A DNA stretch of 64,000 bases from an uncultured delta proteobacterium. GTDB taxonomy: Bacteria > Desulfobacterota > DSM-4660 > Desulfatiglandales > HGW-15. Position 1 is the first letter of the stretch. Every line of letters begins with the position of its first letter. The notes beneath the pieces are model-generated. The model saw nothing but the letters and a program-made list of their open reading frames with translations. It had not been told where the DNA came from and searched no databases. The DNA is taken from contig CAVPOU010000004.1 of the NCBI GenBank assembly GCA_963707125.1, positions 511,234 through 575,233 of the forward strand, read 5' to 3'. Below are positions 7,339 to 52,136 of this stretch, one piece after another. Made by a program: the position numbers and the translations under genes.

Positions 7339-8543
7339 CAGTAATAAGCCACACCGAAGGCCGTGACGCCGATCAGGACGTTCTGGATCATCTTAATCGT
7401 GGCCGCCACATACAGGGCCTTTTCACCGTAAAAGGCACCGGCTGCAGCCACGGCGCCCGTGGAGTCGATAGTCCCTCCCATCCAGGCGCCGGCCAGGATA
7501 TCAGGCATGCCCACAAGCCTTGCAAAGGCGGGCTGGGCCACCATGCAGACGGCCGTGAAGACCATGGAGAGACCGATGGCCAGGGTGAGCTCTTCCTTCT
7601 TGGCCCGGCAGGCCGCCGCGGTCGCGATGGCTGCCGATACGCCGCAGACCGACATGTCCGCCGAGATAACGATGTTCAGGGTCTTCGAAGGCATCTTGAT
7701 GATGTTCTGGCCGATCCAGTACGTGGAGATGAGTAGGATGGGGGTCACCACCCAGGCGACGAAGATCCCTGGCGTTCCGATGGCGATGATCTTATTCACA
7801 AGGATTTCGGCGCCGAGCAATACAAGGCCTGTTTTAATAAAGAACTCTGTTTGAACGGCAGGCCTGACCCAATTCGGAGTGCCCACGGTATTGCTCACAA
7901 GCATGCCGAAGATAATGGCCCAGAGGGGAAAGCCGAAGCCGTAATGGGACATCGTGGCCTGCTGCTCAGCCATGTAGGCGAAGACGGCGAAGAGAAAAAC
8001 AAAGAAGAACCCCACAAAAAAGCGGATAAAGGATTCGCCCATGATGGCTTTGCCGACGCCGAAAAAGACCCCCAAGATAACGGCTAGGCCGATAAGGTAT
8101 GGCACCTGGTTATAGGGTTTGTTGGAGACCTTGGCACTGGCCTTAGACGCCGCTTCCTTGGCCTTCAACCACGCGGCGATCTCGGCCTCCGTTTTCTTAT
8201 TTAGATCGCTATTCTTGAATGCAGCACCCGCTGCGGCTTTTTCTGCTTCTTTCGCCTTTGCAAGAGCCGCCTCCTGCGCAGCCTTCGCCTTCTTGGCGGC
8301 TTCTTCATGGGGGGCGTTCAAAGCATCGGCGGCCGCCTTGCTCCGATAAAGCGAATCCACGGGATTGCTTACCCATCGGCTGGGAGCAGCCAGATATTGC
8401 TGGAGGGTTTTGCCGAAACTTTGATCCCTCGCGCGGATCCTCTTCTTTGAGTCCGAGGCCTGGTGCCATGCGATGGTATGGAAGGGAGCCTTGGCCGACT
8501 CTTCTTTCATGATGGAGTTGTACTTATCGAGATTCTCCTGCAT
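7200..8543 (-). CDS. Putative sulfate-exporter/YeiH (UPF0324) family membrane transporter with an Ala/Lys-rich N-terminal region; 3' end interrupted
   Basis: The core reads [26 protein letters not shown] ... [18 protein letters not shown] ... [13 protein letters not shown], typical of this family. The ORF stops at 7200 inside a G-rich run. Confidence 0.75.
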
Positions 8544-8547
8544 TTTT

Positions 8548-8715
8548 TCAGGGGGCCTCGGGCAGGAATATGAGAATCCCTACGATCAGGATCAAAAACC
8601 CCATCCAAATCGCCATCCAGTCTTCTTTTTTCCACAAATCGGAAAGGGATGTTTTCGTCCTTTCCAATACCACGTATTCCTCACCTTGAGATGCCGCACT
8701 CTTTTGTTCAGCCAT
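8548..8715 (-). CDS. 55-aa single-TM ORF immediately upstream of the transporter (possibly its detached first TM)
   Basis: Translated by hand: MAEQKSAASQGEEYVVLERTKTSLSDLWKKEDWMAIWMGFLILIVGILIFLPEAP. GGAGGA lies upstream of ATG 8715. The stop TGA (8550-8548) is 4 nt before ATG 8543, next to a G5 run (8551-8555). Confidence 0.5.
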   Translation of the reverse strand: MAEQKSAASQGEEYVVLERTKTSLSDLWKKEDWMAIWMGFLILIVGILIFLPEAP

Positions 8716-9217
8716 ATAGCATCCTCCTTATGTTCCTCTGCAAGACGGACTTAGAAAAGCAAAGGTTAAGTGAAAGCCGCCTGTCACTCCGGCCAGCCGC
8801 CAGCTGATCCACGCTCTCGCCCTTTTGAAGTCACCTCCCTTCCAGATGATTTTGATCGATTCACAAAAGCAGAACAGAAAAGCCTTTGAACACGCGACGG
8901 GGTTCACGCTGTGGTTCACCGAAACGCATGGCCTCTTGCTCAATAGGGACTCGCAATTAGACATGCGATGAATGGAGCTTTAGAGCCTAAAGCAGCCGCG
9001 CGTTGACTTAGTGGAAAAGAAGAATACACGAAGGGAAAGCCGACTTTTGTCAAGATTTTAGAATGGTTGGGAGTGAAGCGTCATCATTTCGGTGGATCGC
9101 AAGGAAATGGCTGGATCACAGGTTTTTTTCAGCAACTTTCCGGGTTATGCTTTGGACCATACGACCCTCTTGGAGTTACCGTGGAAAAAGTGTATTATTG
9201 CGGGAGGTGCAAGCCTC

Positions 9218-10138
9218 ATGACCATGTCCATTGATAAATTCCTTTCATGGTTCGATCCTTCTTTCGACTGGATCCAGGTGGAAGTGACGTCAGCCTGTAA
9301 CGCCGCTTGCATCTATTGCCCCCGCACGGTCTACAGGAAAACATGGGAAGACCGGCACCTCCCCCTGGAAACGTTCAAGAAACTGAAACCGGCGTTTGCC
9401 GATACTCGCCATATCCATCTTCAGGGCTGGGGAGAACCTTTTCTTCACCCCGATTTTTTCGAGATGGTAGCCATCGCTAAAACTCAGGCGTTTCAAGTGG
9501 GCACCACCACGAATGCCATGCTGCTCAATGAAGAAACGGTGAGGAAAGTGATCGAAAGCGGTTTAGATATCCTCGCTTTTTCTCTTGCAGGCACCACAGA
9601 GCGGAATGACGTCATTCGCAAAGGGACAAGCCTGAAAAAGGTTTTGAAAGCCATAGAGACTCTAAGCCGGGAGAAGGAGAAGCGAGGAACGTCAGGACCG
9701 GAGATTCATGTGGCTTACATGCTCTTTCGATCGGGCATGACCGAACTGGAGACGTTGCCCGCTTTGCTGGAGGGCCTTGGCGTCAGTCAGGTAGTAGTCA
9801 GCACGCTGGACTTTGTGCCCACCGAAGAACTCCGGAAGGAGGCGGTGATTCCGGCCACGCAGGAAGAGTATGAGAAGTCTGATCCGTCCTTGAGCGTCTG
9901 GTCCGAGGCGGGCCGTGAGAAAGGTTTAGCTGTCCATTACCACCTCGTTTCCCCGGAAAAACGACGGGAAATCTGCACAGAGAATATACAGAGGGCTTTG
10001 TGCGTTTCCTCTGACGGGGCAGTCACTCCATGTGTTTACACGAGCCTCGGGGTTTCAGGCACCTATTACAATTTGCAAGGCAAGAAAGTGAGCTGTGAGA
10101 GGATGGTCTTCGGAAACATCCAGGGAGAAGGAAGATAA
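9218..10138 (+). CDS. Radical SAM enzyme with SPASM/twitch-type C-terminal Cys cluster; apparent frameshift near 3' end (tail continues to 10236 in another frame)
   Basis: CNAACIYCP gives the CxxxCxxC motif. GWGEPFLHP is present, and the C-terminus reads CTENIQRALCVSSDGAVTPCVY. Start chosen at ATG 9218 after GGGAGG (9202-9207); the ORF is open from 9092. Confidence 0.75.
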   Translation: MTMSIDKFLSWFDPSFDWIQVEVTSACNAACIYCPRTVYRKTWEDRHLPLETFKKLKPAFADTRHIHLQGWGEPFLHPDFFEMVAIAKTQAFQVGTTTNAMLLNEETVRKVIESGLDILAFSLAGTTERNDVIRKGTSLKKVLKAIETLSREKEKRGTSGPEIHVAYMLFRSGMTELETLPALLEGLGVSQVVVSTLDFVPTEELRKEAVIPATQEEYEKSDPSLSVWSEAGREKGLAVHYHLVSPEKRREICTENIQRALCVSSDGAVTPCVYTSLGVSGTYYNLQGKKVSCERMVFGNIQGEGR

Positions 10139-10624: not shown

Positions 10625-10701
10625 TGGTGCGCCCAGGGTGATTCGAACACCCGACCTACGGATTCGTAGTCCGTTGCTCTATCCAACTGAGCTATGGGCG
10701 C
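10625..10701 (-). tRNA. tRNA-Arg (anticodon ACG)
   Basis: The reverse complement folds as a cloverleaf: acceptor GCGCCCA/TGGGCGC, D stem GCTC/GAGC, anticodon stem ACGGA/TCCGT with loop CTACGAA, T arm GGGTG-TTCGAAT-CACCC, and an encoded CCA. Confidence 0.95.
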
Positions 10702-10871: not shown

Positions 10872-11672
10872 TTATGCCTTTCGGTATCCTCTGGGCGCGG
10901 GCTGACCGTCTACATAAACACGCATTTGCTCATCAAGAGCAAAACGCCCTCTTGCGATCATCTCAATAGTCAGGGGGAAGATCTTCCAGTCCCCGGCTTC
11001 TTTAAGCTGGTTCTGATGCTCTTCAGCAACTCTGAGCAGTTTTTCCCTGTCAGAAGCCAGGGATTCCAGGGGTTCAGGAAGTCGGACCTTAACAGGGTCG
11101 GAAACCATCAGGAGAGGGCCGGTGTCCACGCCCCTATCCGTCCAGATGGTCGAAGATCGCAAAAGGCTCTCTCCGGCGGCAATGGCATCGACCACCGCGT
11201 TGTCTCCCGCGTATTTCCGTTTCCCTTTTGCGTTCAGGACGGATAGATCAGCGGGATGGACATTGATGCACCGGTCCAGGGTCAGGTAACTCATATATCC
11301 TCCGAGAGCGATCACGTCCACCTCAAAGGCTTTGACAAGGGTACCAGCCATCCGATCAAACTCCCGCCTGGCTTCAAACCCTTCCGGTGTTGTCACCGTC
11401 CTCTTCAGTGCTTTGAGTCGGTGGAAGGTCCGTATGTCATAGCTCACGTAAGGGATGCCTGTATCACAGGCGATGCTTTCTCCATAACATGACCCATCGG
11501 ACCGATCACTGAAAATGAACACGACTTCAAAAGGAGAGACCCCGTCCCTTGATTTGAGAAGCTTTTCTCTCTCAATAAGTTTGAGGATATTTGTGCCGGA
11601 TCCGGACATGAACCCGGCGACTCTCATTGGACGCCCTGCTCCTTCAGGATCAAAAATGGGAGTTGTGGCCAT
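10872..11672 (-). CDS. Formyltransferase-family protein (PurN-like N-terminal domain)
   Basis: Motifs SGSGTNILKL, VIALGGYM and INVHPADLS. Start set to ATG 11672, which has GGAGG 8 nt upstream; the track start at 11693 is a TTG. Confidence 0.6.
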   Translation of the reverse strand: MATTPIFDPEGAGRPMRVAGFMSGSGTNILKLIEREKLLKSRDGVSPFEVVFIFSDRSDGSCYGESIACDTGIPYVSYDIRTFHRLKALKRTVTTPEGFEARREFDRMAGTLVKAFEVDVIALGGYMSYLTLDRCINVHPADLSVLNAKGKRKYAGDNAVVDAIAAGESLLRSSTIWTDRGVDTGPLLMVSDPVKVRLPEPLESLASDREKLLRVAEEHQNQLKEAGDWKIFPLTIEMIARGRFALDEQMRVYVDGQPAPRGYRKA

Positions 11673-11949
11673 AGCGGCTACCTCCGAAGTCAATTGGAAG
11701 AGAGACGAACATTTTCAAACAACATCAAGACAGAGGGTTCAAGGTCTTTACAGCCGGAGGTCCCTCTTTCCGTTTGACAATCCCCGGGCTTTTCTTGATA
11801 TTCGGCTTCAGGATTCAGGAAGATCAATCGTTTCAACATCCGATAGTTTTGGAATTTATATCGCAAAGTTCCAAGATGATCAACATAAAGCTTCAAGAGG
11901 TGAACAAGTTTTGTGGCAGCGTGCAAAATTCTCCAGGAGGTGAGTCATT

Positions 11950-12291
11950 ATGATCGTTAGAAATTTGAATGACAGAGAGGTTGTAGAGACCACATACCTT
12001 GCCCACGGCGGGGCCATAGCGCAGATGATCTTGGATCGCAGGATTCTCAAAGAAATAGGTTTTCTAGCGGTTGCAAAGCTGGAAAGGGGAAGGACCATAG
12101 AAAGTCATAGAGATCCTATGGAGGAAATATACTTCGTCTTGAGCGGGGAGGGGGAGATGTCCGTGGATGAGGAGACGAGGCATGTACGTCCCGGCGACGC
12201 CACCTGGATTCCCACAGGATCGGCTCACAGTCTTACGAACTCGTCAGAACAAGATCTCCTCATCCTGGTGGTTGCCTCTTCAAACTGGTGA
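11950..12291 (+). CDS. Cupin domain protein
   Basis: 113 aa with two cupin motifs (ESHRDPMEEIYFVLSGEG ... PGDATWIPTGSAHSL). GGAGG precedes the ATG. Confidence 0.75.
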   Translation: MIVRNLNDREVVETTYLAHGGAIAQMILDRRILKEIGFLAVAKLERGRTIESHRDPMEEIYFVLSGEGEMSVDEETRHVRPGDATWIPTGSAHSLTNSSEQDLLILVVASSNW

Positions 12292-12597
12292 GTAACGTTC
12301 AGAAGGGTTTGCATGGGACCGCCATACCTGGACAGGGCTGGGACCTTTTCTTGCGTTCCAAGTCTCCCGGGCTGGTCTTTTCTACGACTTACCTGCGAGG
12401 GAAACTTGCCCCCTCCACCGTTCCCCTCGCGTGCGCTCGGGGCCGGGGCTTCCCCCACAGATAAGTCGTGAAAAGACAGCGCCCTCCCGCCGGTCACTCC
12501 AGAAAAGGCCCCAGCCCTGTCCGACGTTTGGCTCGTTGCAAGAGATCCCTTTTGTTTAAGCCCATGTAAACACTTTTGAACGTTGCCAACTGGTGAG
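12283..12597. mobile_element. Fold-back MITE (~295 bp) with 23-25-bp imperfect terminal inverted repeats and 10-bp direct duplication AACTGGTGAG
   Basis: The direct repeats lie at 12283-12292 and 12588-12597. The left TIR TAACGTTCAGAAGGGTTTGCATG (12293-12315) matches the reverse complement of 12563-12587 (GGCAACGTTCAAAAGTGTTTACATG) at 19 of 22 aligned positions. Internal inverted blocks also pair: ggacagggctgggaccttttct / agaaaaggccccagccctgtcc. Confidence 0.8.
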
Positions 12598-12685
12598 ATG
12601 AAATCGACTCAGTTCTATTGGATCGATGAAAAAGAAGTTAGGATTATAAGTATGCTTAACTGTGAATAATTATTGACGAAATGTA

Positions 12686-12713
12686 TTGACAAATATTCTA
12701 TTTTATATATAAT
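12686..12713 (+). promoter_or_regulatory. Sigma-70-type promoter TTGACA-N16-TATAAT ahead of the EPS locus
   Basis: TTGACA at 12686-12691 and TATAAT at 12708-12713, in an AT-rich stretch ~30 nt upstream of ATG 12744. Confidence 0.6.
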
Positions 12714-12743
12714 TTGACTAAACCTCTTGTGTCAGGATTTCCT

Positions 12744-13544
12744 ATGTATCTAGAACATTGGGGGCTGAAGGAATTCCCCTTTGAAAACGTTCCGGATCCT
12801 CGATTCTTCTATCTCTCCCATCATCATGAAGAGGCTTTGTCCCGGCTCCTCTATGCCGTCAAGATGAAGAAGGGTGGGGCCATGCTGTCAGGGGACATCG
12901 GATGCGGGAAGACTACTCTGACCAAAGTCTGCATCCAGGAGCTCGCCGGTGGCCGGTATGATATAAGCCTCATCGTAAACCCTAAGCTTGAGCCTTTGGA
13001 GTTTCTTCAGGAAGTTGTCTATCAATTAGGAATCTCAGACGTTCCGGATACCAAAGTAAAGTGCCTCAGGGTCTTGAATGAAAGAATGACTCAGAACATG
13101 AGGTCGAACAAAGAGACTCTGTTGATGGTCGACGAGGCTCAACTCCTGAATCATTCCACCCTGGAAGAGATCCGATTGCTTTTGAATGCTCAGTTAAATG
13201 ATCGATTTCTGATTACGATCATCCTCTTCGGACAACCGGAATTAAGAGAAAGAATCAAGGCGATCCAGCAAATCGATCAAAGGATTCCCATTAAGTACCA
13301 CCTGGCTCCTTTCGACATGGAAGATACAGCCCGCTATATTCTGTTCAGACTGAACAGGGCTGGAAGGGAGAAAAACACCCTTACGCGGCCGGCGATCGAA
13401 AAAATCTACGAGATATCCAAAGGAGTGCCAAGAAAAATAAACAATCTTAGCGACCTGGCCCTCTTGATCGGCTACAGCAAGAACCAAGAGATGGTCGACG
13501 TCGACATCGTGGAGACGATTATTCGAGATGGTGCGCTTCTCTGA
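12744..13544 (+). CDS. ExeA-like AAA ATPase (PEP-CTERM/EPS-locus type secretion ATPase)
   Basis: The N-terminus MYLEHWGLKEFPFENVPDPRFFY is typical of the ExeA family. Walker A is GDIGCGKTTL and Walker B is LLMVDEAQ. The track's TTG start at 12714 abuts the -10 box and was rejected. Confidence 0.8.
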   Translation: MYLEHWGLKEFPFENVPDPRFFYLSHHHEEALSRLLYAVKMKKGGAMLSGDIGCGKTTLTKVCIQELAGGRYDISLIVNPKLEPLEFLQEVVYQLGISDVPDTKVKCLRVLNERMTQNMRSNKETLLMVDEAQLLNHSTLEEIRLLLNAQLNDRFLITIILFGQPELRERIKAIQQIDQRIPIKYHLAPFDMEDTARYILFRLNRAGREKNTLTRPAIEKIYEISKGVPRKINNLSDLALLIGYSKNQEMVDVDIVETIIRDGALL

Positions 13545-14583
13545 CATCAAGCAAATAAGGGATAGGACGTCCGCCCCAAGGGACAGTGCCCCGGCAAAGG
13601 ACGGAGAGGCCAGCCGGTTATGGCTGAGCGATACGCAGTTTTCAGAGCTCGGTAGGAAAGAGGACCGGACGCCTGAAGACATAAGCGCTGAGCGGGATTC
13701 CTCCGATGTGGCTGTGCTCTATGAGAAGTTCACGCGATCAGCGAAGGAGATCCAGGAAAAAGTGACAAGCGAACAGGGTGTCGCCTCCGCTCCCATTCTA
13801 GCGGATCTCCATACCGTCATTGACCGCGATCTTATCCAGCCTCTTTTCGAGCACGCGATGTCCAAGTCGGGAGACTGGAAAGACATGTCACTTCACAGTG
13901 TCGAGGTGACTCTGGCCGCTCTCATGGTGGGCAAAGGCATAGGCTATGACACAAAAAAGCTTCTGGAGATTGGGCTTGCTGCCTTACTAGAGAATGTGGG
14001 CATGTATCGGATCCCGGAAGGGATCCTTCAAAAGCCGACCAAGCTTGAGACAGAGGAAAGAGACCGCATCAGAGAACACCCTGAGATAAGTGCGAAGATC
14101 CTTTCTCGTCTCGGGGATCGGTATGAGTGGTTGGCTGAGGTCGCCTTGCAGGTGCATGAACGCGCGGACGGCTCAGGTTACCCAAGGGGGCTAAAAGGGT
14201 CTGAGATCTCTGAAATCGCTTCGATCATAGGCCTTGTCGATACCTATGTGGCCATGATCAGAAAAAGAGCGTATCGAGACGGAATCCTGCAACCGGATGC
14301 GATCCGATTCATCCTCAAGGAGGCAAAGGTCCAGTTTCAGCCCAAGATCCTCAAAGCCTTTCTGAATTCCATTTCTCTATTCCCTTACAATACCTATGTG
14401 AAACTGAACAACAAATCTGTTGGGAGAGTGATCTCTACGGACAGGAATCACCCATTGCGTCCGATAGTCGAAGTCCTTTTTGACGGCTTGGGAAACAAAC
14501 CGGAGAGAAAGGAAATCGTCCGTTTATCAGAGAACCCTCTTCTCTACATCGTTCAAACGGTCGATGAGAAAGATCTGACATAG
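13528..14583 (+). CDS. HD-GYP domain protein with degenerate metal-binding residues
   Basis: HERADGSGYPRGL is present. The canonical LLHDIGK reads LLENVGM (13985-14005), and HHE reads VHE. The start overlaps the upstream stop. Confidence 0.75.
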   Translation: MVRFSDIKQIRDRTSAPRDSAPAKDGEASRLWLSDTQFSELGRKEDRTPEDISAERDSSDVAVLYEKFTRSAKEIQEKVTSEQGVASAPILADLHTVIDRDLIQPLFEHAMSKSGDWKDMSLHSVEVTLAALMVGKGIGYDTKKLLEIGLAALLENVGMYRIPEGILQKPTKLETEERDRIREHPEISAKILSRLGDRYEWLAEVALQVHERADGSGYPRGLKGSEISEIASIIGLVDTYVAMIRKRAYRDGILQPDAIRFILKEAKVQFQPKILKAFLNSISLFPYNTYVKLNNKSVGRVISTDRNHPLRPIVEVLFDGLGNKPERKEIVRLSENPLLYIVQTVDEKDLT

Positions 14584-14675: not shown

Positions 14676-15851
14676 ATGTTTCAAGGCTTAAGAGACCCTG
14701 TGTTGAAACCCTTTCATGGAACAAGGGGTAGAAGCTTTTTTTTGTGGGTCCCCCTTTTCTTCTTCTTCCTTTTCAGCCTCTCCTCCTGTTCTTCATCCAC
14801 TGCCATCCAGGGAACACCGGTCAATGAAGTGGCCACTCTTCAGGACCGTGTCGAAGTGACCAGGTTGCAGACCGAGCAAAACCTTGAGGCCTTGGCCAGG
14901 ATGAGCCAGGTGAAAGAGAACAGCGTCTTTAAGACGGTGGCCGGAATCCCTGAATATCGCATCGGCTCAGGCGATATTCTTGAGATCAGCTCCTACAACG
15001 GGGACAAAGTGACGGCGACGACCGTGACCGTGGACAGCAGGGGAAGAATCTCTTACTCCTTCCTGGATCACTTGAAAGTGGACGGACTGACGTCCAGCGA
15101 AGTGGACGAGCTCTTGACCGTCAAACTCTCCGCCTATGTGAGAGCCCCGCGCGTCAGCGTGCAGGTGAAGGAGTTTAACAGTAAGAGCGCAAATCTCATA
15201 GGAGAATTTTCTTCGCTTAGAAACGTGAGTTATGGAAAGGGAGGCAGCGGCCGGATCAATCTCAAGGGAAAGACCCCTCTTACGGATCTGATCGCTCTTG
15301 GAGGGGGATACACGCTGAACGCGGACATTAAGAACGTCAAGCTTGTGAGGAAGGGGAAATCCTACCTCATCAACCTCTACGACATTATTGAAAAAGGCGA
15401 TGAAAACCAGAATGTGATCATCGACGAGGCGGACGTGGTGAACATTCCCGAACTCCCAACCTATGGAGAAAGAGTCTACGTCTTGGGAGAGGTATTCGGC
15501 CAGGGCATCTATGCGCTCAAAGAGGCTCAGGATCTCTTGGCTGCCCTAGCCCTGGCGGGAAATACCACCAGGCTGGCGAAAGAGGAGAACACCCTCATTG
15601 TGAGGGGATATGAGCCGGGGAAACCGCCCCTTGTCATGATGGCGGATGTGAAGTCTCTTTTGAGAAAAGCCGATATATCCCAGAACGTTCGTCTCAAGGA
15701 TGGGGATCTTGTGTATGTTCCGAGGATGCTGATCGGAGACATCAACGACTGGATCATCAACATGACGCCTCTGCTTAACTTGATTCTCTATCCGGGCGAG
15801 TTTGAGGACTATTATGCCGGGACCAGGGTTCTGCAGTATAACAAAAAATAG
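14676..15851 (+). CDS. Polysaccharide export outer-membrane lipoprotein (Wza-like)
   Basis: Signal peptide with lipobox LSSC. Poly_export-like segment EYRIGSGDILEI...VDGLTSSEVDELL...APRVSVQV. Confidence 0.8.
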   Translation: MFQGLRDPVLKPFHGTRGRSFFLWVPLFFFFLFSLSSCSSSTAIQGTPVNEVATLQDRVEVTRLQTEQNLEALARMSQVKENSVFKTVAGIPEYRIGSGDILEISSYNGDKVTATTVTVDSRGRISYSFLDHLKVDGLTSSEVDELLTVKLSAYVRAPRVSVQVKEFNSKSANLIGEFSSLRNVSYGKGGSGRINLKGKTPLTDLIALGGGYTLNADIKNVKLVRKGKSYLINLYDIIEKGDENQNVIIDEADVVNIPELPTYGERVYVLGEVFGQGIYALKEAQDLLAALALAGNTTRLAKEENTLIVRGYEPGKPPLVMMADVKSLLRKADISQNVRLKDGDLVYVPRMLIGDINDWIINMTPLLNLILYPGEFEDYYAGTRVLQYNKK

Positions 15852-15882: not shown

Positions 15883-18800
15883 TTGCCCCAGTACGATATC
15901 AACCTCAGAGAATACTGGCGTATTCTTAAGAAAAGAAAATTCATCGTTTTCTTTGTAGGGATCGTTCTGGGCGTCTTCAGCACCGCCTTTGCTGTTCTTA
16001 AAACTCCCACTCCGATTTACACTTCTGTGTGCAGCATCAAATTTGAAAAAGAAACCACGGTCGAAGGGCTCTACGCAAAGACCATCACCTGGTCAGGGGG
16101 CGATGACATTGAGACCCAGATCTCCGTCATCAAGAGCTTCACGATTTTTGAAAAAGTGGCTCAACGACTGGGTCTCATTCCGAAGGCAAGCGTGCCCGCA
16201 GGCAGTCCTGCCAAAGGCAATCTCGCCAGAGTCGTTGATAATCTTCAATCCAAAGTTGAAGTCACCCGGCAAGGGATGACCAACATTCTCAACATCCAGG
16301 TAAAGGATGCGGAACCTGCTTTTGCCCAGAAACTTGCGAACACCGTTGCAGCGACCTACAAGGACCTCCATTCGGAGGTGCAGATGAAGCGGACCCTCGA
16401 TGCCATAAAATACATTGAAGATCAGCTGGTCCAGGTCAGGCAGAGACTCCGCGAGGCGGAAGAAGAGTTCAATCGATTTACCCAGAACAATCAACTTCTT
16501 TCAGTCGACATCCAAAGCGAGAAGCTTCTTTCAAGGTCACAGGATGTGCAGAATGAAATCCGGAGGCTGGTTGAAAACAAAGGGGAACTCCAGAGCATGG
16601 CGGCTCGCCTGGACAAATTCATTGCAAACCCTTCCGTCCAGGGCAACTTCTATTCCGCCAAAGCAAGCCCCCAGTATCAGTCGGCCAATGACACTCTTAC
16701 GGAGCTTCAGCTCCGCAGAGAAACCCTCTTGAAGGATTTTACTCCTCTTCATCCGGAAGTCGTGGATGTGGGACGGAAAATTCTTGAGGGTGCGCGGAAA
16801 ATGAGGCTTCTTCTCCTGTCTCAAATTGGAGACCTTGAAAAACAGGAAGGGGACGCAAGGAGCGAGCTTCAGGAGCTCGACAGAAAGTCCAGCGCCCTGA
16901 TGGAGAAAAAACTGGAATATGATCGTCTGAAAAGGAAGGTAGAGCTCTACAACGACATGACCACGCTCCTGGAGCGGAAAAACCAGGAGGCTTTGATCAA
17001 GAAAGCTGAGAAACCGGAAGAAGTGACGGTTGTCAAACAGGCTCTTTTCCCCACGGAGCCGATCAATCCTCCGAAAACTGCGACCACAGGAGCCATGGGG
17101 CTGATCATCGGTCTGGTTCTGGGGCTGATTGCCGCATTCGTTGTCGAAACTTTTGATACGTCCATTGGAGCCATTGAGGATGTGGAGGAGACTCTCAAGA
17201 CGCGGGTCCTGGGGGTCATCCCTCAAGCGGATGCCAAGGAGGTGCATGAAAGCTTCAAAGGAAAACTCCCTGAGGGTATGGAAGTGCTTTCTCCTGCCCA
17301 GATGGTGAATATGGTGGCCCACTATGCTCCCAAGAGCATGATGGCCGAGAGCTTCCGGGGATTGAGAACCAATATTCAGTTCAAAGACACTGAGAATGAA
17401 ATCAAAACGATCGCCGTGACGAGCGCTTCTCCTCAGGAAGGGAAGACGCTCGTTTCCGTCAACCTGGCGATCACCATGGCTCAGGCGGGGTTGAAGACGC
17501 TTCTGATCGGGTCGGATATGAGAAAGCCGATGATCGCCAGAGTGTTCGGCGTCGAGCAGACCCCAGGCCTTTCCGAGATCCTTTTGGGGAACTCCCCTTG
17601 GCGCGATGCCGTCCAGACGGTTACAGATATGATTGTCGGGAAAATGTCTCTGGATGAGGTGCTGCTGACCCCCGGGCTCGACAATCTGCACCTTATTGCG
17701 GCCGGATCCATTCCCCCGAATCCTGCGGAACTCGTGGAGTCGAAACGCCTCAAGGAATTCATCGAAGAAGCAGAGAGCGAGTACGATCTCATCCTGTTCG
17801 ATTCTCCTCCGATTCTGTCAACCGCCGATGCGGCGATTCTCGGCTCGAAGATGGACGGCGTCCTTTTCGTCTACCGCCTTGGAACGGTGTCCAGAGGCTT
17901 GCTGAAGAGATCGACGGCCCAGCTTGAGCAGGTGAATTGTCGTATCTTGGGTGTCATTCTCAATGGGATGAAGCCGGAGGTCAGTCCGGATTTTCACAAT
18001 TTCAAGTATTACAAGTATTACTCCTCTTATGGCGAGGAAGGGAAAAAGGGAGAAAAACCCAAGAAAGGCCTCCCCTTCTTCAGAGAGAACCCGATCTCTT
18101 CGTGGGGAAGGACAAAAAAGGCAAGGAAGAGCAAGAAGTCCATCATGACCTCCTCCCTTGCGGCTGTGGGTCTCATCCTTCTTGCGGGTGGCCTTCTCTG
18201 GCAGTTTGGGATCATTGATCCCCTGAAGATGCTGGATTCAGCAAGGCCGACCGCAGGCAAGAACGCACAATCGCTTAAGCAGAAAGTCCCCCCAAAAACG
18301 TCCCCTCAACTCCCGTCTTCCCCGCCCCCCTCCCAGGTGAAAGAAGAAAGCGCGAAAACCCTGGTGACGAAAGGCCCTGGGGCGGAAGCGAAACAGGAGC
18401 CTGCGCCGGAAGTTAAGGTCCAGGTCGTTGTGGAGAACTCGGTGCAGGAAGCCAGATCGCCTGCCCCAGCCACAAAGCTGGCGGTTGAGAAGAAGGTGAT
18501 CTCTGAGGAGAAAGCCAGGGAGAGCACTCCGGTCCTTCAGGGTGAGTACCCCTATTCGATTTATCTCAGCTCCTTGAAGACTCTGGACCAGGCAAAGAAA
18601 GCAGTTTCCGTCTATGCCAAGAAAGGAATCACGTCCTACTGGGTGAAAGTCAATTTCAAAGAAAAGGGCGAGTGGTACAGGATCTACGCGGGTCATTTCA
18701 AGGATCGAGAAGAGGCTGAGAGTTTCTCACGAGCCCACGAGATAACCGAAACAAAGCCCCTGAAAACCGAGTATGCCAACCTCGTTGGAGTTTATTCTCA

Positions 18801-18984
18801 ATTGAGGGACTTTGATGGCAAGGTCAAAGCCATTTCAGATCTCGGCTACTCTTCTTATGTGGTCAAAGGAAACGATGGGAAATTAAAACTGCTCGTGGGC
18901 ACCTATGTGACGGAAGAAGCCGCCGAGCAGCAGCGTCAGGATCTTATGGCCAGGGGAATTGAAAACCGGGTCATTAAACGTTAA
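15883..18984 (+). CDS. Polysaccharide co-polymerase / BY-tyrosine kinase (Wzc-like) fused to a third TM, Pro-rich linker and two SPOR domains
   Basis: TTG start after AGGAGAGG. The N-terminus is Wzz-like, with 2 TM segments and a coiled coil. Kinase motifs: P-loop SASPQEGKT, LLIGSDMRKP, LILFDSPP. Tyr cluster FKYYKYYSSY at 18001-18030 and a TM at ~18130-18215. SPOR-like repeats YSIYLSS...WYRIYAGHFKDREEAE and YANLVGVY...KLLVGTYVTEEAAE. Confidence 0.85.
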   Translation: MPQYDINLREYWRILKKRKFIVFFVGIVLGVFSTAFAVLKTPTPIYTSVCSIKFEKETTVEGLYAKTITWSGGDDIETQISVIKSFTIFEKVAQRLGLIPKASVPAGSPAKGNLARVVDNLQSKVEVTRQGMTNILNIQVKDAEPAFAQKLANTVAATYKDLHSEVQMKRTLDAIKYIEDQLVQVRQRLREAEEEFNRFTQNNQLLSVDIQSEKLLSRSQDVQNEIRRLVENKGELQSMAARLDKFIANPSVQGNFYSAKASPQYQSANDTLTELQLRRETLLKDFTPLHPEVVDVGRKILEGARKMRLLLLSQIGDLEKQEGDARSELQELDRKSSALMEKKLEYDRLKRKVELYNDMTTLLERKNQEALIKKAEKPEEVTVVKQALFPTEPINPPKTATTGAMGLIIGLVLGLIAAFVVETFDTSIGAIEDVEETLKTRVLGVIPQADAKEVHESFKGKLPEGMEVLSPAQMVNMVAHYAPKSMMAESFRGLRTNIQFKDTENEIKTIAVTSASPQEGKTLVSVNLAITMAQAGLKTLLIGSDMRKPMIARVFGVEQTPGLSEILLGNSPWRDAVQTVTDMIVGKMSLDEVLLTPGLDNLHLIAAGSIPPNPAELVESKRLKEFIEEAESEYDLILFDSPPILSTADAAILGSKMDGVLFVYRLGTVSRGLLKRSTAQLEQVNCRILGVILNGMKPEVSPDFHNFKYYKYYSSYGEEGKKGEKPKKGLPFFRENPISSWGRTKKARKSKKSIMTSSLAAVGLILLAGGLLWQFGIIDPLKMLDSARPTAGKNAQSLKQKVPPKTSPQLPSSPPPSQVKEESAKTLVTKGPGAEAKQEPAPEVKVQVVVENSVQEARSPAPATKLAVEKKVISEEKARESTPVLQGEYPYSIYLSSLKTLDQAKKAVSVYAKKGITSYWVKVNFKEKGEWYRIYAGHFKDREEAESFSRAHEITETKPLKTEYANLVGVYSQLRDFDGKVKAISDLGYSSYVVKGNDGKLKLLVGTYVTEEAAEQQRQDLMARGIENRVIKR

Positions 18985-19028: not shown

Positions 19029-20462
19029 ATGAAAGCGATCTTGAAAAAGCTTTTTTCCCAAGGAGAGCAGAGAGACAGAGGTCAGGCGACGCTTGAGTTC
19101 ATTCTGCCTCTCCTCCTTCTGCTCTTCGTCCTCATCGCGTTCGCCATGGTGATTCCTGCTCTCACTCCGACCAAGACTCTCGCCGTTGCAGGGGCCGTGA
19201 TCATTTTTGTTCTGAGTTTTGTCAGTACCCAGATCGCCCTCTACATCCTGATCTTTTCCATGCTCTTGAGCCCTGAATTCATTGTGGGAGCAACGGAAGG
19301 CGGCACCCTGGGCCGCGGCATCACTCTCCGGGCGGACGATTTTCTTGTGGCGATTATAGGGTTCAGCTGGCTCGCCAGGATGGCGATCAACAAGGAACTG
19401 GGGTTTTTTCTAAAGACCTCTCTGAACCGGCCCATCGCTTATTACATGATGGTGTGTGTGGCTTCCACGCTTCTGGGCGCCCTGTTCGGAAGGCTGGATC
19501 TGAAGATGGGCTTTCTCTTTGTCCTGAAGTACTTTGAATATGTCGTCATCTATTTCATGGTGGCCAACTACCTCAAGGACAGAAAGCAACTAAAGACTTT
19601 TGTGTGGGCTATGCTGCTCACCTGCCTGATTGTCTCGGTCATCTCCATGGCCAAAATCCCGGAAGGCGGAAGAATCTCTGCTCCCTTTGAAGGAAAAGTC
19701 GGTGAGCCGAACACGTTTGGCGGTTATCTTGTCTTTATGATGAGCATCGCAACGGGCCTCGCTCTCATGGAAGAATCCTTTCGCAATCGCCTTATCGCTT
19801 TTTTCTTGGTGATCCTTTTCAGCATCCCTCTTCTTTACACGCAGTCCAGAAGCTCTTATCTGGCAGCGATTCCGGCTGTATTGAGTTTTCTATGGTTATC
19901 CAAAAGAAAACAGTGGATTCCTCCGGTCCTGTTACTCGTGGGATTGCTTCTCCCTTTCGTGGCACCCAAGGTCACCAAGGACCGGGTGTCCTACACCTTT
20001 ACCCAAGGCATTGGTCGTCCGGATGCCGTCACCGTTGCCGGCGTGCAGCTGGACACGTCGACTTCCGCAAGAATCAAGAGCTGGGAAGAAGCGGTTCGAG
20101 ACCTGGTCCAACACCCCGTGCTCGGATTCGGTGTCACGGGATACCGGTTTGTGGATGCCCAGTATGTAAGGGTCGCCGCGGAGACCGGATTCCTTGGTCT
20201 GCTCATTTTTCTCCTTTTGCTGGGTACAATACTCAAGGAGTCCTACCGGGTTTTCAAGGCGAGTGAGGATCCCTTTGATAAGGGGCTGGCCATCGGTTTT
20301 CTTGCGGGCTTCACCGGGCTTCTGTTTCATGCCATAGGAGCGAACACCTTCATCATTGTGAGGATCATGGAACCCTTCTGGTTCATCGCCGCCATGGTGA
20401 TGATGATTCCATCCCTTGAAAAGGACCGGAAGGGCAAGGCAGAAGAAGGCAAAAGAAGCTAA
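19029..20462 (+). CDS. O-antigen ligase/polymerase-like (Wzy_C) membrane protein
   Basis: 477 aa and polytopic. The loop YTQSRSSYLAAI is followed by further TM segments. Confidence 0.7.
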   Translation: MKAILKKLFSQGEQRDRGQATLEFILPLLLLLFVLIAFAMVIPALTPTKTLAVAGAVIIFVLSFVSTQIALYILIFSMLLSPEFIVGATEGGTLGRGITLRADDFLVAIIGFSWLARMAINKELGFFLKTSLNRPIAYYMMVCVASTLLGALFGRLDLKMGFLFVLKYFEYVVIYFMVANYLKDRKQLKTFVWAMLLTCLIVSVISMAKIPEGGRISAPFEGKVGEPNTFGGYLVFMMSIATGLALMEESFRNRLIAFFLVILFSIPLLYTQSRSSYLAAIPAVLSFLWLSKRKQWIPPVLLLVGLLLPFVAPKVTKDRVSYTFTQGIGRPDAVTVAGVQLDTSTSARIKSWEEAVRDLVQHPVLGFGVTGYRFVDAQYVRVAAETGFLGLLIFLLLLGTILKESYRVFKASEDPFDKGLAIGFLAGFTGLLFHAIGANTFIIVRIMEPFWFIAAMVMMIPSLEKDRKGKAEEGKRS

Positions 20463-33300: not shown

Positions 33301-33309
33301 TGGCATACT

Positions 33310-34200
33310 TGACAGGGAGCAGGTTTTCTCCTATAATCTGAATGCTTATTAAGCATGCAGATAAGGAGGAGCCCATGACAGAGACGCTTTTTAGCTTGGA
33401 ACACAGACGAGAGGCCCTGTACAGGAAGATTGAGGAAACAGGGGATTTCAGGCGAGGAACCATTTCGGTGACGTATCGCAAATGCGGGAAAAAGAACTGT
33501 GCCTGCGCACGAGAAGGGCACCCGGGCCACGGCCCCCAGCATTTATGGAGCACGACCATCAAGGGGAAAAGCTACGCGAAGAGCGTCAAGGTTGGTCCTG
33601 AGCTCAAAAAGTATTTGGACGAGATAAGTAACTATCGGAGCTTTCTGAAGCTCTGCGCTGAAATGGTCGAGGTAAACGAGCGTATATGCGATCTGCGGCC
33701 GGTGCCCGAGGTGAAAGATGACAGGGAGTTGGTCGAGCTCAAAAAAAAATTACACAAACAGTTTATGGAGAAATACAAAGGGAGATAGAGCGAATCGTCA
33801 GCCGCTACTGCAAAGAGAAGAGCGCCACTGGGAGAGTGGACCTAGAATCGTTTGAGATGAACATTCGGTCTGCCATGCACGATATTGGTAGCAAGATGCT
33901 TGAGGGGCTTATAAATGCTGATGGGGGCGATTACGGCGGCAGGACAATCCCCTGTGACAAGGGGCATCAGTACGAGTTCATCGGATATAGGGATAAGAAA
34001 GTGCTTACAGTTTTGGGGCCTGTTACGGTCAAGAGGGCCTATTACTACGATGGGCAATGCCAGCGGGGATGTTGCCCGAAGGATAGCGCTCTTGACATTG
34101 TGGGGACATCTTACAGTTCCGGCGCTCCCCTTCGCGTATTCAGCTAGATCCGTGAAGGAGACTGGGATTGAAACTGTCGTATTGCCATCCTCTCTCGCTT
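33310..34200 (+). mobile_element. Truncated ISKra4-like insertion sequence remnant
   Basis: ORF 33375-33788 follows AAGGAGG and has a Zn-ribbon CGKKNCACAREGHPGHGP. ORF 33836-34147 carries LTVLGPVTVKRAYYYDGQCQRGCCPKDSALD, typical of ISKra4-family transposase N-termini, but ends after 103 aa. Confidence 0.6.
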
Positions 34201-52060: not shown

Positions 52061-52136
52061 TGGAGGCGGCAATCGGATTCGAACCGATGAATAACGGTTT
52101 TGCAGACCGCTGCCTTAGCCACTTGGCTATGCCGCC
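52061..52136 (-). tRNA. tRNA-Cys (anticodon GCA)
   Basis: Acceptor GGCGGCA/TGCCGCC, discriminator U, encoded CCA. Anticodon loop CTGCAAA. T arm ATCGG-TTCGAAT-CCGAT. Confidence 0.9.

What the first reader, a model, noticed from the sequence alone, without database searches (positions are those of the whole stretch)
12686..14583. EPS locus opens with an ExeA-like ATPase coupled to an HD-GYP domain that has lost key catalytic residues
The HD-GYP protein keeps HERADGSGYP, but the HD dyad of LLHDIGK reads EN (LLENVGM, 13985-14005) and the HHE motif reads VHE. Its start overlaps the ATPase stop, so the two genes appear translationally coupled. They sit behind a near-consensus TTGACA-N16-TATAAT promoter.

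A catalytically dead HD-GYP is a plausible c-di-GMP (or other nucleotide) sensor gating polysaccharide export.
Basis: partly seen in the sequence, partly recalled or inferred. Interest (0 to 1): 0.55.

Follow-up and report, generated by a model that had tools for sequence, protein, structure and literature searches.

The report
Dead HD-GYP sensor with ATPase partner
A polysaccharide-export operon begins with an intact ATPase gene and an enzyme-dead relative of a c-di-GMP-degrading enzyme; this pair recurs, sometimes fused, beside the same export genes in several bacterial phyla, which points to an undescribed switch controlling slime or capsule export.

Summary
ORF 13528-14583 encodes a 351-aa HD-GYP protein. 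Aligned to PmGH, three of eight metal ligands are replaced (H221→E155, D222→N156, H276→V209), as are K225→M159, D183→W117 and D308→V241. [quoted passage not shown] These replacements are conserved in 121 homologues, so this is a selected state, not decay.

The gene overlaps by 17 nt a 266-aa AAA_22 ATPase gene (12744-13544) with intact Walker A/B motifs. A perfect TTGACA-N16-TATAAT promoter (12686-12713) is conserved in orthologous loci.

ATPase / dead HD-GYP / Wza / Wzc / Wzy_C recurs in Thermodesulfobacteriota, Acidobacteriota and NC10 (the ATPase–dead-HD-GYP pair also in Latescibacterota). Each lineage has a different set of lost catalytic residues. Natural fusions exist: ATPase+HD-GYP, and HD-GYP+TM+SPOR. 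Where HD-GYP carries the SPOR tail, Wzc lacks it; in this window Wzc carries it.

Best reading: a non-catalytic cyclic-dinucleotide receptor, like DvhD (PDB 9RBZ, the top structural match). It likely acts with the ATPase and a peptidoglycan-binding SPOR module on the Wza-Wzc exporter. Ligand binding and mechanism are inferred, not shown. I found no paper describing this module.

The parts
12686..12713 (+). Sigma-70-type promoter, TTGACA (12686-12691), 16-nt spacer, TATAAT (12708-12713)
   Evidence: 12/12 consensus match. Two such sites in 64 kb against 0 expected. Hexamers and much of the spacer are conserved in orthologous loci L084, L086 and L088 at about -58 from the ATG.
12744..13544 (+). 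AAA_22 P-loop ATPase, 266 aa, TIGR03015-like (XrtA/PEP-CTERM-associated ATPase family; distantly GspA/ExeA-type). Mechanical ORF starts at TTG 12714.
   Evidence: Pfam AAA_22 at 1.8e-18. TIGR03015 at 227 bits, below the 324.5 cutoff. Gene callers give 266 aa. Walker A GxxGxGKT and Walker B DEA(Q/H) are invariant in 13 orthologues from several phyla.
13528..13544 (+). 17-nt overlap between the ATPase stop and the HD-GYP start codon
   Evidence: Sequence. The identical overlap is found in L001, L084 and L086. More distant loci have gaps of 2 to 18 nt or a 1-nt overlap, apart from an apparent 154 nt in L008 and 45-166 nt where the gene order is swapped.
13528..14583 (+). Degenerate HD-GYP protein, 351 aa: disordered N-terminus with the MVRFSDI motif, helical stalk (res 50-112), HD-GYP domain (res 120-281), small C-terminal beta domain (res 286-345)
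   Evidence: Pfam HD_5 at 3.2e-28. AF2 model with pLDDT 73.5. Foldseek top hit is DvhD 9RBZ at 1.3e-7, followed by PmGH, PA4781 and Bd1817. 739 homologues, many full length.
13990..13995 (+). E155-N156 in place of the HD dyad (PmGH H221-D222); M159 (nt 14002-14004) replaces catalytic K225
   Evidence: Alignment to 4MCW. Family counts are E108/Q12 at 155, N 121/121 at 156, and M 116/121 at 159.
14152..14184 (+). V209-H210-E211 (for HHE) through G217-Y218-P219 (GYP retained)
   Evidence: V209 aligns to PmGH H276; H210, E211, R212 and GSGYP are invariant.
14383..14562 (+). C-terminal five-stranded beta domain with no Pfam family
   Evidence: AF2 on the domain alone gives pLDDT 90. No Pfam hit at E≤10. 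Only weak Sm/SH3-like Foldseek matches, E≥0.13. The PilZ DxSxxG motif is not matched exactly on reading the sequence; RxxxR was not checked systematically.
14676..15851 (+). Wza-like outer-membrane polysaccharide export (OPX) protein, 391 aa
   Evidence: Pfam Poly_export plus SLBB. Follows the HD-GYP gene in L001, L004, L008, L084, L086 and L093, and follows the ATPase-HD-GYP pair in L096 and L097.
15883..18984 (+). Wzc-like PCP/BY-kinase, 1033 aa, with an extra third TM helix (res 754-778, nt 18142-18216) and a periplasmic tail with a SPOR domain (Pfam 889-947; second copy read from sequence) (nt ~18547-18981)
   Evidence: Wzz, GNVR, AAA_31 and SPOR. TIGR01007 at 189 bits, above the 108 cutoff. 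Hydropathy scan and a Tyr cluster YYKYYSSY read in the printed sequence at about residues 709-716.
19029..20462 (+). Wzy_C / O-antigen-ligase-like membrane protein, last gene of the module
   Evidence: Weak PEP_O_lig_1 and IctB hits in NCBIfam. Wzy_C in precomputed Pfam. This position is conserved in all full cassettes.
10872..12291 (.). Conserved upstream neighbours: a divergent formyltransferase-like gene (10872-11693, minus strand) and a cupin gene (11950-12291, plus strand)
   Evidence: The same neighbours occur in orthologous loci L081-L088; the cupin is absent in L086-L088.

Best explanation
The two genes encode a cytoplasmic control unit for the downstream Wza-Wzc-Wzy_C polysaccharide export machine.

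The HD-GYP protein is no longer a phosphodiesterase. It keeps the nucleotide-binding cleft and acts as a receptor for c-di-GMP, or a related cyclic dinucleotide, in the manner of DvhD. It works in a complex with the catalytically competent AAA_22 ATPase, which is co-transcribed from a strong constitutive-type promoter and probably translationally coupled to it. It also works with a membrane-anchored, peptidoglycan-binding TM-SPOR module, which in this organism is appended to the C-terminus of Wzc.

Nucleotide binding is proposed to change the receptor's dimer or stalk conformation. That would switch the ATPase, which in turn promotes assembly or activity of the trans-envelope Wza-Wzc channel through the peptidoglycan. 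This is analogous to GspA/ExeA (AAA_22 ATPase plus a PG-binding domain) helping secretin assembly.

Shown:
- Loss of catalytic residues.
- Retention of the residues that contact the ligand in solved structures.
- Conservation of the gene pair.
- Fusions among the three parts.

Inferred:
- Ligand identity.
- Physical complex.
- Direction and target of regulation.
For: (1) Catalytic loss. Three of eight PmGH metal ligands are replaced, plus K225→M, D183→W and D308→V. H221A, D222A and H276A abolish PmGH activity (PMC4159591). The replacements are fixed across 121 homologues.

(2) Ligand-site retention. K169 (PmGH K235), L173 (DvhD L577), Y218 (GYP), I227 (I294), M243 (DvhD M646), R247 (R314/R650), Y249 (DvhD Y652) and R250 (K317) are conserved.

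(3) Precedent. DvhD has HD→SQ and HH→MN, binds c-di-GMP at sub-micromolar affinity without metal, and does not hydrolyse it (PMC13090378). It is the top Foldseek match to the model.

(4) Specific association. Among 80 HD-GYP loci from genomes, only the five with the ATPase immediately upstream share the K225, H276 and D308 losses. In most of the other loci these positions read K, H and D; some show single changes.

(5) Synteny. The AAA_22 gene is adjacent to the HD-GYP gene in 11 of 14 lineages examined, most with Wza, Wzc and Wzy_C alongside. These include Thermodesulfobacteriota, Acidobacteriota, NC10 and Latescibacterota.

(6) Different lineages have lost different ligand sets: EN/VH, HD/EQ, HD..R-V-Y, GD/IH. 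This is the pattern expected after an ancestral loss of catalysis.

(7) Fusions. AAA_22+HD_5 occurs in three 50%-identity cluster representatives (P0241, P0356, P0336). HD_5+TM+SPOR occurs in about 25 representatives. Where HD-GYP carries the SPOR tail, Wzc is 747-762 aa and lacks it. Here Wzc is 1033 aa and carries it.

(8) The ATPase Walker A and B motifs are invariant, so one partner is under catalytic constraint while the other is not.
Against: - No binding, hydrolysis or interaction data exist for any member of this family.
- Five of eight ligand positions are still metal-competent (D/E119, H123, H184, H210, D238), and E155 could ligate a metal. A reduced metal site and some chemistry cannot be excluded.
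- The 'retained' contact residues are also conserved in active HD-GYPs, so they argue for nucleotide binding in general, not for receptor function.
- The guanine-specifying Glu of DvhD (E668) aligns to A266, with E265 adjacent, so base specificity is unclear.
- Three related lineages lack the AAA_22 neighbour. Two instead sit next to a PF00004 AAA ATPase.
- P0241-type fusions could in principle arise from a frameshift in overlapping genes.
- The analogy to GspA rests on domain composition. Direct similarity to E. coli GspA is not significant.
Confidence: 0.5

Rival explanations
1. Nucleotide-independent adaptor. The dead HD-GYP domain is only a protein-protein scaffold linking the ATPase to Wzc/SPOR. 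This would resemble inactive RpfG-family proteins or HnoD, which act through protein contacts.
For: Inactive HD-GYPs that act through interactions are documented: HnoD, RpfG and ECA3548 (Galperin & Chou preprint). Conserved N-terminal linear motifs (MV[RK]FSD[IL] and RLxLSD) sit in a predicted disordered region. Fusions show physical association.
Against: Invariance of GYP, R247, Y249, R250, K169 and L173, which contact c-di-GMP in PmGH and DvhD, is hard to explain if the cleft is unused.
Confidence: 0.2
2. The receptor is real but the ligand is not c-di-GMP. It could be 3'3'-cGAMP, which Hypr-GGDEF enzymes of the former Deltaproteobacteria produce, or pGpG.
For: The second-best PDB sequence match is the cGAMP-specific V-cGAP3 (5Z7C, 2.5e-16). 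The DvhD authors note cGAMP synthesis in deltaproteobacteria. The residue aligning to DvhD's guanine-specifying E668 is Ala (my mapping).
Against: DvhD, the closest structural match, prefers c-di-GMP. The cassette also occurs in Acidobacteriota, NC10 and Latescibacterota; whether those phyla make cGAMP was not examined.
Confidence: 0.15
3. It is still an enzyme with a remodelled metal centre (E155/N156 as ligands) that hydrolyses c-di-GMP or another phosphoester locally at the export machine.
For: Five of eight ligand positions are retained, H221→E is a metal-competent change, and E/N are strictly conserved rather than drifting. Bimetallic HD-GYPs exist, such as PA4781 and Bd1817.
Against: Single Ala substitutions at H221, D222 and H276 each abolish PmGH activity. 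The putative catalytic K225 and D183 are also lost. Sister lineages have lost different ligands, including H250 and H277, which is incompatible with one conserved alternative active site.
Confidence: 0.1
4. The pair has nothing to do with export. It is a general signalling or housekeeping pair that happens to lie upstream.
For: Two related lineages (L090, L094) sit among housekeeping genes, and one (L092) stands alone.
Against: The pair is linked to Wza and/or Wzc in most of the lineages examined, though not in L002 or L003. A SPOR tail is exchanged between HD-GYP and Wzc.
Confidence: 0.05

Closest known systems
DvhD of Desulfovibrio vulgaris (PDB 9RBZ/9RC0; Nat Commun 2026, PMC13090378)
   Same: An HD-GYP domain with lost metal ligands that binds c-di-GMP without hydrolysis. 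It is the best structural match to the model. It shares the contact residues L577/L173, M646/M243, R650/R247, Y652/Y249 and the GYP tyrosine. It also comes from the former Deltaproteobacteria.
   Different: DvhD is a transmembrane dCache-PAS-HD-GYP receptor that controls a LapG-like protease and adhesins. The protein here is soluble, has a different N-terminus and an extra C-terminal beta domain, and carries EN/VH rather than SQ/MN. It is paired with an AAA_22 ATPase in an OPX/PCP export operon. Identity over the domain is only about 26%.
PmGH (Persephonella marina GAF-HD-GYP phosphodiesterase, PDB 4MCW)
   Same: The best sequence match in the PDB (2.8e-18). Same fold, same GYP loop and same substrate-contact residues.
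   Different: PmGH has the full tri-iron ligand set and is active. Here H221, D222 and H276 are replaced, as are K225, D183 and D308.
Other catalytically inactive HD-GYPs: HnoD (SE/QLE) and ECA3548 (HT/ANE); PA2572 (YN-GYP) is recalled from memory and was not seen in a tool result
   Same: Degenerate HD and HHE motifs with a regulatory rather than catalytic role.
   Different: These are REC- or PilZ-linked proteins. None is reported with an AAA_22 partner, a SPOR module or Wza/Wzc genes.
TIGR03015 XrtA/PEP-CTERM system-associated ATPase; GspA/ExeA/MshM-type AAA_22 ATPases
   Same: The ATPase's best family match. Same AAA_22 core with GxxGxGKT and DEAQ. Like GspA, the system combines this ATPase with a peptidoglycan-binding domain and an outer-membrane channel.
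   Different: The score is below the family cutoff, and no exosortase or PEP-CTERM genes were seen in the window. The PG-binding domain is SPOR rather than PG_binding_1, and it sits on Wzc or on HD-GYP, not on the ATPase. The channel is an OPX protein, not a secretin. Similarity to E. coli GspA is not significant pairwise.
c-di-GMP control of polysaccharide machines by degenerate enzyme domains (PelD, and cellulose synthase BcsA-PilZ / BcsE); from general knowledge
   Same: The concept of a post-translational second-messenger switch built into an exopolysaccharide secretion apparatus.
   Different: Those systems are synthase-dependent and use GGDEF-like, PilZ or GIL receptors. To my knowledge no built-in receptor has been described for a Wzx/Wzy-type Wza-Wzc export module, and no HD-GYP-type receptor.

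Membership tests
HD-GYP c-di-GMP phosphodiesterase (catalytic class II PDE) | HD-GYP fold and sequence family | tested here: met
   Pfam HD_5 at 99 bits and HD at 37 bits. Foldseek hits to 9RBZ, 4MCW, 4R8Z and 3TM8.
HD-GYP c-di-GMP phosphodiesterase (catalytic class II PDE) | Complete metal-ligand set (E/D, H, HD, H, HH, D) | tested here: not met
   H221→E155, D222→N156 and H276→V209, fixed in the family.
HD-GYP c-di-GMP phosphodiesterase (catalytic class II PDE) | Putative catalytic residues K225 and D183, and conserved D308 | tested here: not met
   M159, W117 and V241 at the aligned positions.
HD-GYP c-di-GMP phosphodiesterase (catalytic class II PDE) | HHExxDGxGYP signature | tested here: not met
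   The motif reads VHERADGSGYP. The GYP part is intact and the first His is lost.
HD-GYP c-di-GMP phosphodiesterase (catalytic class II PDE) | Hydrolysis of c-di-GMP | not testable with these tools
   Needs an enzyme assay.
Non-catalytic HD-GYP c-di-GMP receptors (DvhD-like in function) | HD-GYP fold with non-conservative loss of metal ligands | tested here: met
Non-catalytic HD-GYP c-di-GMP receptors (DvhD-like in function) | Conservation of residues that contact c-di-GMP in solved complexes | tested here: met
   K169, L173, Y218, I227, M243, R247, Y249 and R250. The E668 equivalent is uncertain.
Non-catalytic HD-GYP c-di-GMP receptors (DvhD-like in function) | Measured c-di-GMP binding without turnover | not testable with these tools
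   Needs ITC or DRaCALA and HPLC assays.
Non-catalytic HD-GYP c-di-GMP receptors (DvhD-like in function) | DvhD architecture (dCache-TM-PAS-HD-GYP) and a Lap-like operon | tested here: not met
   No TM segment and no PAS or dCache domain. The operon encodes Wza/Wzc. It is therefore not a DvhD orthologue.
TIGR03015 XrtA/PEP-CTERM system-associated ATPase | Score at or above the curated cutoff (324.5 bits) | tested here: not met
   227.2 bits over the full length.
TIGR03015 XrtA/PEP-CTERM system-associated ATPase | P-loop GxxGxGKT and DEAQ box | tested here: met
   GDIGCGKTT and VDEAQ, invariant in 13 orthologues.
TIGR03015 XrtA/PEP-CTERM system-associated ATPase | Genomic association with exosortase XrtA and PEP-CTERM proteins | tested here: not met
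   No exosortase hit among the large ORFs of the 64-kb window. Small ORFs and the rest of the genome were not examined.
GspA/ExeA type II secretion assembly ATPase | AAA_22 ATPase domain | tested here: met
   Both proteins hit PF13401.
GspA/ExeA type II secretion assembly ATPase | Detectable sequence similarity to a GspA | tested here: inconclusive
   BLASTP against E. coli K-12 GspA gives E=1.2. E. coli GspA is itself divergent, and Aeromonas ExeA and Vibrio MshM were not available to test.
GspA/ExeA type II secretion assembly ATPase | TM segment and PG-binding domain on the same polypeptide; T2SS secretin context | tested here: not met
   The ATPase is soluble and 266 aa. PG binding (SPOR) is on Wzc, and the neighbours are OPX/PCP genes.
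Wza-Wzc (OPX / PCP-2a BY-kinase) export system | OPX with Poly_export+SLBB; PCP with Wzz/GNVR, a BY-kinase domain and a C-terminal Tyr cluster | tested here: met
   TIGR01007 at 189 bits, above the 108 cutoff. YYKYYSSY read at about residues 709-716.

The most novel reading that the evidence does not exclude
AAA_22 ATPase + dead HD-GYP + TM-SPOR form a previously unrecognised, widespread accessory complex of Wzx/Wzy-type exporters. It would be a cyclic-dinucleotide-gated, ATP-driven, peptidoglycan-anchored assembly or activation factor for the Wza-Wzc channel. This would be the OPX counterpart of GspA/GspB for secretins, and the first built-in c-di-GMP switch for this class of polysaccharide machine.
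Probability: 0.35. Interest if true: 0.8.

Novelty: new variant of a known kind. Interest (0 to 1): 0.62.

Why it matters
c-di-GMP is known to switch on synthase-dependent polysaccharides (cellulose, Pel, alginate, PNAG) through receptors built into the machinery. For Wzx/Wzy-dependent Wza-Wzc systems, the known control is tyrosine phosphorylation and transcription (general knowledge).

A conserved receptor-ATPase pair at the head of such export operons, sometimes fused to a peptidoglycan-binding tail that otherwise sits on Wzc, would give a direct second-messenger input to this pathway. It would also suggest how a large OPX/PCP channel is fitted through the cell wall.

The module is common in environmentally important, poorly studied phyla: sulfate reducers and syntrophs, Acidobacteriota, NC10 and Latescibacterota. 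It would also extend the very short list of HD-GYP domains that act as receptors. DvhD is the only structurally proven case I found.

All predictions are testable with standard biochemistry.

Tried and rejected
- **Shifted ligands.** The alignment to PmGH is gap-free across the HD and HP motifs and has a single 1-residue gap before HHE. No alternative His or Asp lies nearby.
- **Pseudogene or decay.** Rejected. The ORF is intact and there are 739 homologues. The substituted residues are themselves conserved.
- **N-terminal region as DUF3391.** No Pfam hit. AF2 predicts disorder for residues 1-57.
- **Genome-contig scan.** The generic GSGYPxGLKG pattern dominated. Only 5 of 80 loci were relevant, though the other 75 served as a useful background set.
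- **Literature searches.** TIGR03015, 'HD-GYP + SPOR domain' and 'HD-GYP + Wza/Wzc' returned nothing relevant. 'HD-GYP + PEP-CTERM' returned only incidental mentions.
- **Similarity to E. coli GspA.** Not significant.
- **PDB relatives of the ATPase.** Only remote MuB/TnsC-type AAA+ proteins.
- **Rfam.** Only three tRNAs in the window and no known RNA in the leader.
- **Full EPS or PEP-CTERM locus in this window.** Not found. No glycosyltransferase, flippase or exosortase.
Full report
**What is there**

The finding's coordinates cover two overlapping genes on the + strand.

The first gene is listed mechanically from TTG 12714. It most likely starts at ATG 12744, giving 266 aa and a stop at 13542-13544. 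Gene callers on identical contigs give that length, and the TIGR03015 alignment begins at that Met. The protein is a soluble P-loop ATPase:
- Pfam AAA_22 at 1.8e-18.
- Best NCBIfam match TIGR03015, 'XrtA/PEP-CTERM system-associated ATPase', at 227 bits over the full length, below the curated cutoff of 324.5.

The second gene (13528-14583, 351 aa) matches Pfam HD_5 and HD. Its ATG lies 17 nt inside the ATPase gene. A perfect TTGACA-16-TATAAT promoter lies at 12686-12713. The window contains two such perfect sites where dinucleotide shuffles give none.

**Check of the catalytic residues**

phmmer against the PDB aligns residues 119-283 to the active phosphodiesterase PmGH (4MCW, E=2.8e-18). The alignment has no gap across the first motifs and a single one-residue gap before HHE. 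The 4MCW chain numbering is the paper's numbering plus 6.

The eight PmGH metal ligands (PMC4159591) map as follows:

| PmGH ligand | This protein | Status |
|---|---|---|
| E185 | D119 | conservative change |
| H189 | H123 | retained |
| H221 | E155 | replaced |
| D222 | N156 | replaced |
| H250 | H184 | retained |
| H276 | V209 | replaced |
| H277 | H210 | retained |
| D305 | D238 | retained |

The same paper reports that H221A, D222A and H276A each essentially abolish activity. Other conserved or putatively catalytic residues are also replaced: K225→M159, D183→W117, D308→V241.

By contrast, the residues that contact c-di-GMP in PmGH or in the DvhD complex are retained:
- K169 (PmGH K235)
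- L173 (DvhD L577)
- Y218 of the GYP motif
- I227 (PmGH I294)
- M243 (DvhD M646)
- R247 (PmGH R314, DvhD R650)
- Y249 (DvhD Y652)
- R250 (PmGH K317)

**This is a selected state, not decay**

A database search found 739 homologues. Many are full length at 50-94% identity, and the named ones come from Thermodesulfobacteriota, Syntrophales and Desulfobacterales MAGs. In an alignment of 121 sequences:
- N156 is invariant.
- Position 155 is E (108) or Q (12).
- Position 209 is V, T or I.
- M159 is present in 116 of 121.
- H210, E211, R212, GSGYP, D238, R247 and R250 are invariant or nearly so.

**Structure**

An AlphaFold2 model (pLDDT 73.5) shows four regions:
- a disordered N-terminus (residues 1-57);
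- a helical stalk (50-112);
- the HD-GYP domain (120-281);
- a five-stranded beta domain (290-345).

[quoted passage not shown] PmGH, PA4781 and Bd1817 follow.

DvhD is a 2026 precedent. Its HD reads SQ and its HH reads MN. It binds c-di-GMP at sub-micromolar affinity without metal, does not hydrolyse it, and changes its stalk and dimer geometry on binding (PMC13090378).

The C-terminal beta domain folds confidently on its own (pLDDT 90). It has no Pfam family and only weak Sm/SH3-like structural matches. It is not recognisably PilZ.

**Context in the window**

Three genes follow the pair:
- A Wza-like OPX protein (14676-15851).
- A 1033-aa Wzc-like PCP/BY-kinase (15883-18984).
- A Wzy_C / O-antigen-ligase-like protein (19029-20462).

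Wzc has the usual two TM helices, a kinase domain and a Tyr cluster (YYKYYSSY). It then has an unusual third TM helix (residues 754-778), a Pro/Lys-rich linker and a SPOR region: Pfam places one domain at 889-947, and I read a second copy in the sequence. SPOR is a peptidoglycan-binding domain (general knowledge).

Beyond 20.5 kb the genes are convergent housekeeping genes. I found no glycosyltransferase, flippase or exosortase among the large ORFs of the window. In this genome the 'EPS locus' is therefore a compact export module.

**The pair is conserved across phyla**

Orthologous contigs at 53-60% protein identity keep the same gene order:
- a divergent formyltransferase-like gene;
- a cupin gene (sometimes absent);
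- the ATPase;
- HD-GYP, with the identical 17-nt overlap;
- Wza;
- Wzc-SPOR;
- Wzy_C.

They also keep the promoter.

A genome scan returned 80 HD-GYP loci, most of them generic. tblastn with the window proteins found the ATPase immediately upstream of HD-GYP in five loci:
- L001, Thermodesulfobacteriota.
- L002, an uncultured bacterium.
- L003, Latescibacterota.
- L004, Acidobacteriota.
- L008, NC10, where two HD-GYP domains are fused in tandem.

L001, L004 and L008 also carry Wza and Wzc downstream; Wzy_C is seen in L004 and L008, while L001 ends within Wzc.

Scoring the catalytic positions in all 80 loci gave a clean split. All HD-GYP domains in those five loci have lost K225, H276 and D308. 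In most of the others these positions read K, H and D, and some show single changes.

The exact pattern differs by lineage:

| Lineage | Pattern at the catalytic positions |
|---|---|
| This family | EN...VH |
| L002 and NC10 (L008) | HD...EQ or EH |
| Acidobacteriota | HD, then S/T for K225, R for H250, V/A for H276, Y/H for H277 |
| Latescibacterota (L003) | GD...IH |

Different residues eroding in different branches, while the GYP motif, R247 and R250 stay, is what is expected after an ancestral loss of catalysis.

Further look-ups found the AAA_22 neighbour in L089, L091, L093, L095, L096 and L097. It was absent in L090 and L094, where a PF00004 AAA ATPase sits upstream, and in L092. That is roughly 11 of 14 lineages examined.

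**Fusions tie three parts together**

The exhaustive representative search found 1023 cluster representatives at E≤1e-30. Two kinds of fusion appear among the nearest 150.

*AAA_22+HD_5 fusions.* There are three:
- P0241: its N-terminal half is 53% identical to the window ATPase, and its HD-GYP half has the same EN/VH pattern.
- P0356.
- P0336.

*HD_5+TM+SPOR fusions.* About 25 proteins of 650-760 aa have a dead HD-GYP followed by one TM helix. Their C-terminal tail is homologous to residues ~745-1033 of the window's Wzc; Pfam finds SPOR there in the five I scanned. This fusion family is large in Desulfobacterales and other Thermodesulfobacteriota.

In two such loci the order is HD-GYP-SPOR, AAA_22 ATPase, Wza, Wzc, Wzy_C. 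Wzc there is only 747-762 aa and has no SPOR. The SPOR tail is therefore on either HD-GYP or Wzc. This indicates that the ATPase, the dead HD-GYP, the SPOR anchor and Wzc work together at the inner membrane.

The ATPase keeps invariant Walker A and B motifs in 13 orthologues. One partner is under catalytic constraint and the other is not.

**Most likely mechanism (inferred)**

The HD-GYP protein is a non-catalytic receptor for c-di-GMP or a related dinucleotide. When bound, it modulates the AAA_22 ATPase. Together with the SPOR peptidoglycan anchor, the ATPase promotes assembly or activity of the Wza-Wzc channel.

The domain logic resembles GspA/ExeA. E. coli GspA is AAA_22 + C39-like + PG_binding_1, and its relatives help secretins assemble through the wall (PMC4098917 abstract). 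This is an analogy only: BLASTP of the window ATPase against E. coli GspA is not significant (E=1.2).

Confidence by step, as my judgement:

| Step | Confidence |
|---|---|
| Loss of phosphodiesterase activity | ~0.8 |
| Functional coupling to the ATPase and exporter | ~0.85 |
| c-di-GMP as the ligand | ~0.55 |
| The whole model | ~0.5 |

**Rivals**

- A nucleotide-independent scaffold (0.2).
- A different ligand, such as 3'3'-cGAMP or pGpG (0.15). The cGAMP-specific V-cGAP3 is the second-best PDB sequence hit.
- A remodelled but active metal site (0.1). Five ligand positions remain and E155 could bind metal. The lineage-specific loss of other ligands argues against one conserved alternative site.
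- Coincidental neighbourhood (0.05).

**Comparison with what is known, and novelty**

Degenerate HD-GYP domains are known: HnoD and ECA3548, PA2572 (from memory), and DvhD as a proven c-di-GMP receptor. The protein here fails the membership test for catalytic HD-GYP phosphodiesterases. It is not a DvhD orthologue, because its architecture and operon are different. It plausibly works like DvhD.

The ATPase is TIGR03015-like but scores below the cutoff and has no exosortase context.

Full-text searches found no paper linking HD-GYP with SPOR, or with Wza/Wzc plus an AAA_22 ATPase. That library is limited. I therefore rate this a new variant of a known kind: a conserved, multi-phylum accessory module of Wza-Wzc exporters built around a dead HD-GYP.

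**Verdict**

Ligand binding and the mechanism remain to be tested. Interest is 0.62.

Noticed in passing
window 12277-12601: A ~330-nt set of three nested inverted repeats (arms of 41, 27 and 25 nt) between the cupin gene's 3' end and the promoter. It folds into one long hairpin of -163 kcal/mol, z = -9.75 against shuffles. It is single-copy in the window, has no Rfam match, and is absent from the orthologous locus L084, whose intergenic region is only 135 nt. It could be an inserted palindromic (MITE-like) element or a large terminator or insulator.
   Followed up: partly
window 18142-18981 (Wzc residues 754-1033): Wzc carries an extra third TM helix, a Pro/Lys-rich linker and a SPOR domain (a second read from the sequence) after its Tyr cluster. 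The same TM-SPOR tail is instead fused to the dead HD-GYP in many Desulfobacterales and Thermodesulfobacteriota proteins, and Wzc there lacks it (L096, L097).
   Followed up: yes
window 13528-13650; proteins P0001-P0120, P0309, P0393 and others: Two short motifs, MV[RK]FSD[IL] at the very N-terminus and [RK]LxLSD about 30 residues later, are conserved in a region AF2 predicts as disordered. They are kept even where the genes do not overlap, for example MVRMKDV in L002. They may be docking motifs.
   Followed up: partly
L008 4792-5163 (minus strand) and 7866-9590: The NC10 locus has a tandem duplication that fuses two dead HD-GYP domains into one 574-aa protein. It also has a truncated second copy of the ATPase N-terminus on the opposite strand about 2 kb upstream.
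   Followed up: no
L090 and L094 (proteins P0177, P0175): A sister subclade of dead HD-GYPs (pattern HHD-T-R-V-H) is not next to an AAA_22 ATPase. It sits directly downstream of a ~500-aa PF00004 AAA ATPase and upstream of ACT-domain and SAICAR-synthase genes, so it pairs with a different ATPase outside an export locus.
   Followed up: no
L091 (protein P0200): Here the ATPase-dead-HD-GYP pair precedes an unknown 554-aa protein, a TPR-Poly_export/SLBB protein, and a TpsB/TpsA two-partner secretion pair with a giant RCC1-repeat exoprotein. This suggests the pair can serve other outer-membrane export systems.
   Followed up: no
window 10872-11693 (minus strand) and 11950-12291 (plus strand): A formyltransferase-like gene, divergently oriented, and a small cupin gene are conserved upstream neighbours of the cassette in orthologous loci (L081-L088). 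The cupin is missing in L086-L088. They may have a role in sugar modification.
   Followed up: no
window 33309-33337 (plus strand): A second perfect TTGACA-N17-TATAAT promoter-like site, the only other one in the window. Its downstream gene was not examined.
   Followed up: no
window 10628-10701, 52064-52136, 52230-52302 (all minus strand): Three tRNA genes, the only Rfam matches at gathering threshold in the window.
   Followed up: no
window 44255-46675 (minus strand) and 42505-43905 (minus strand): An FHA-GAF-HisKA-HATPase-REC hybrid kinase and a sigma-54 activator (307 bits to the PEP-CTERM-box response-regulator model, below its cutoff) lie about 25-30 kb from the cassette. An FHA-REC protein and a GAF sigma-54 activator also flank the cassette in L086.
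   Followed up: no
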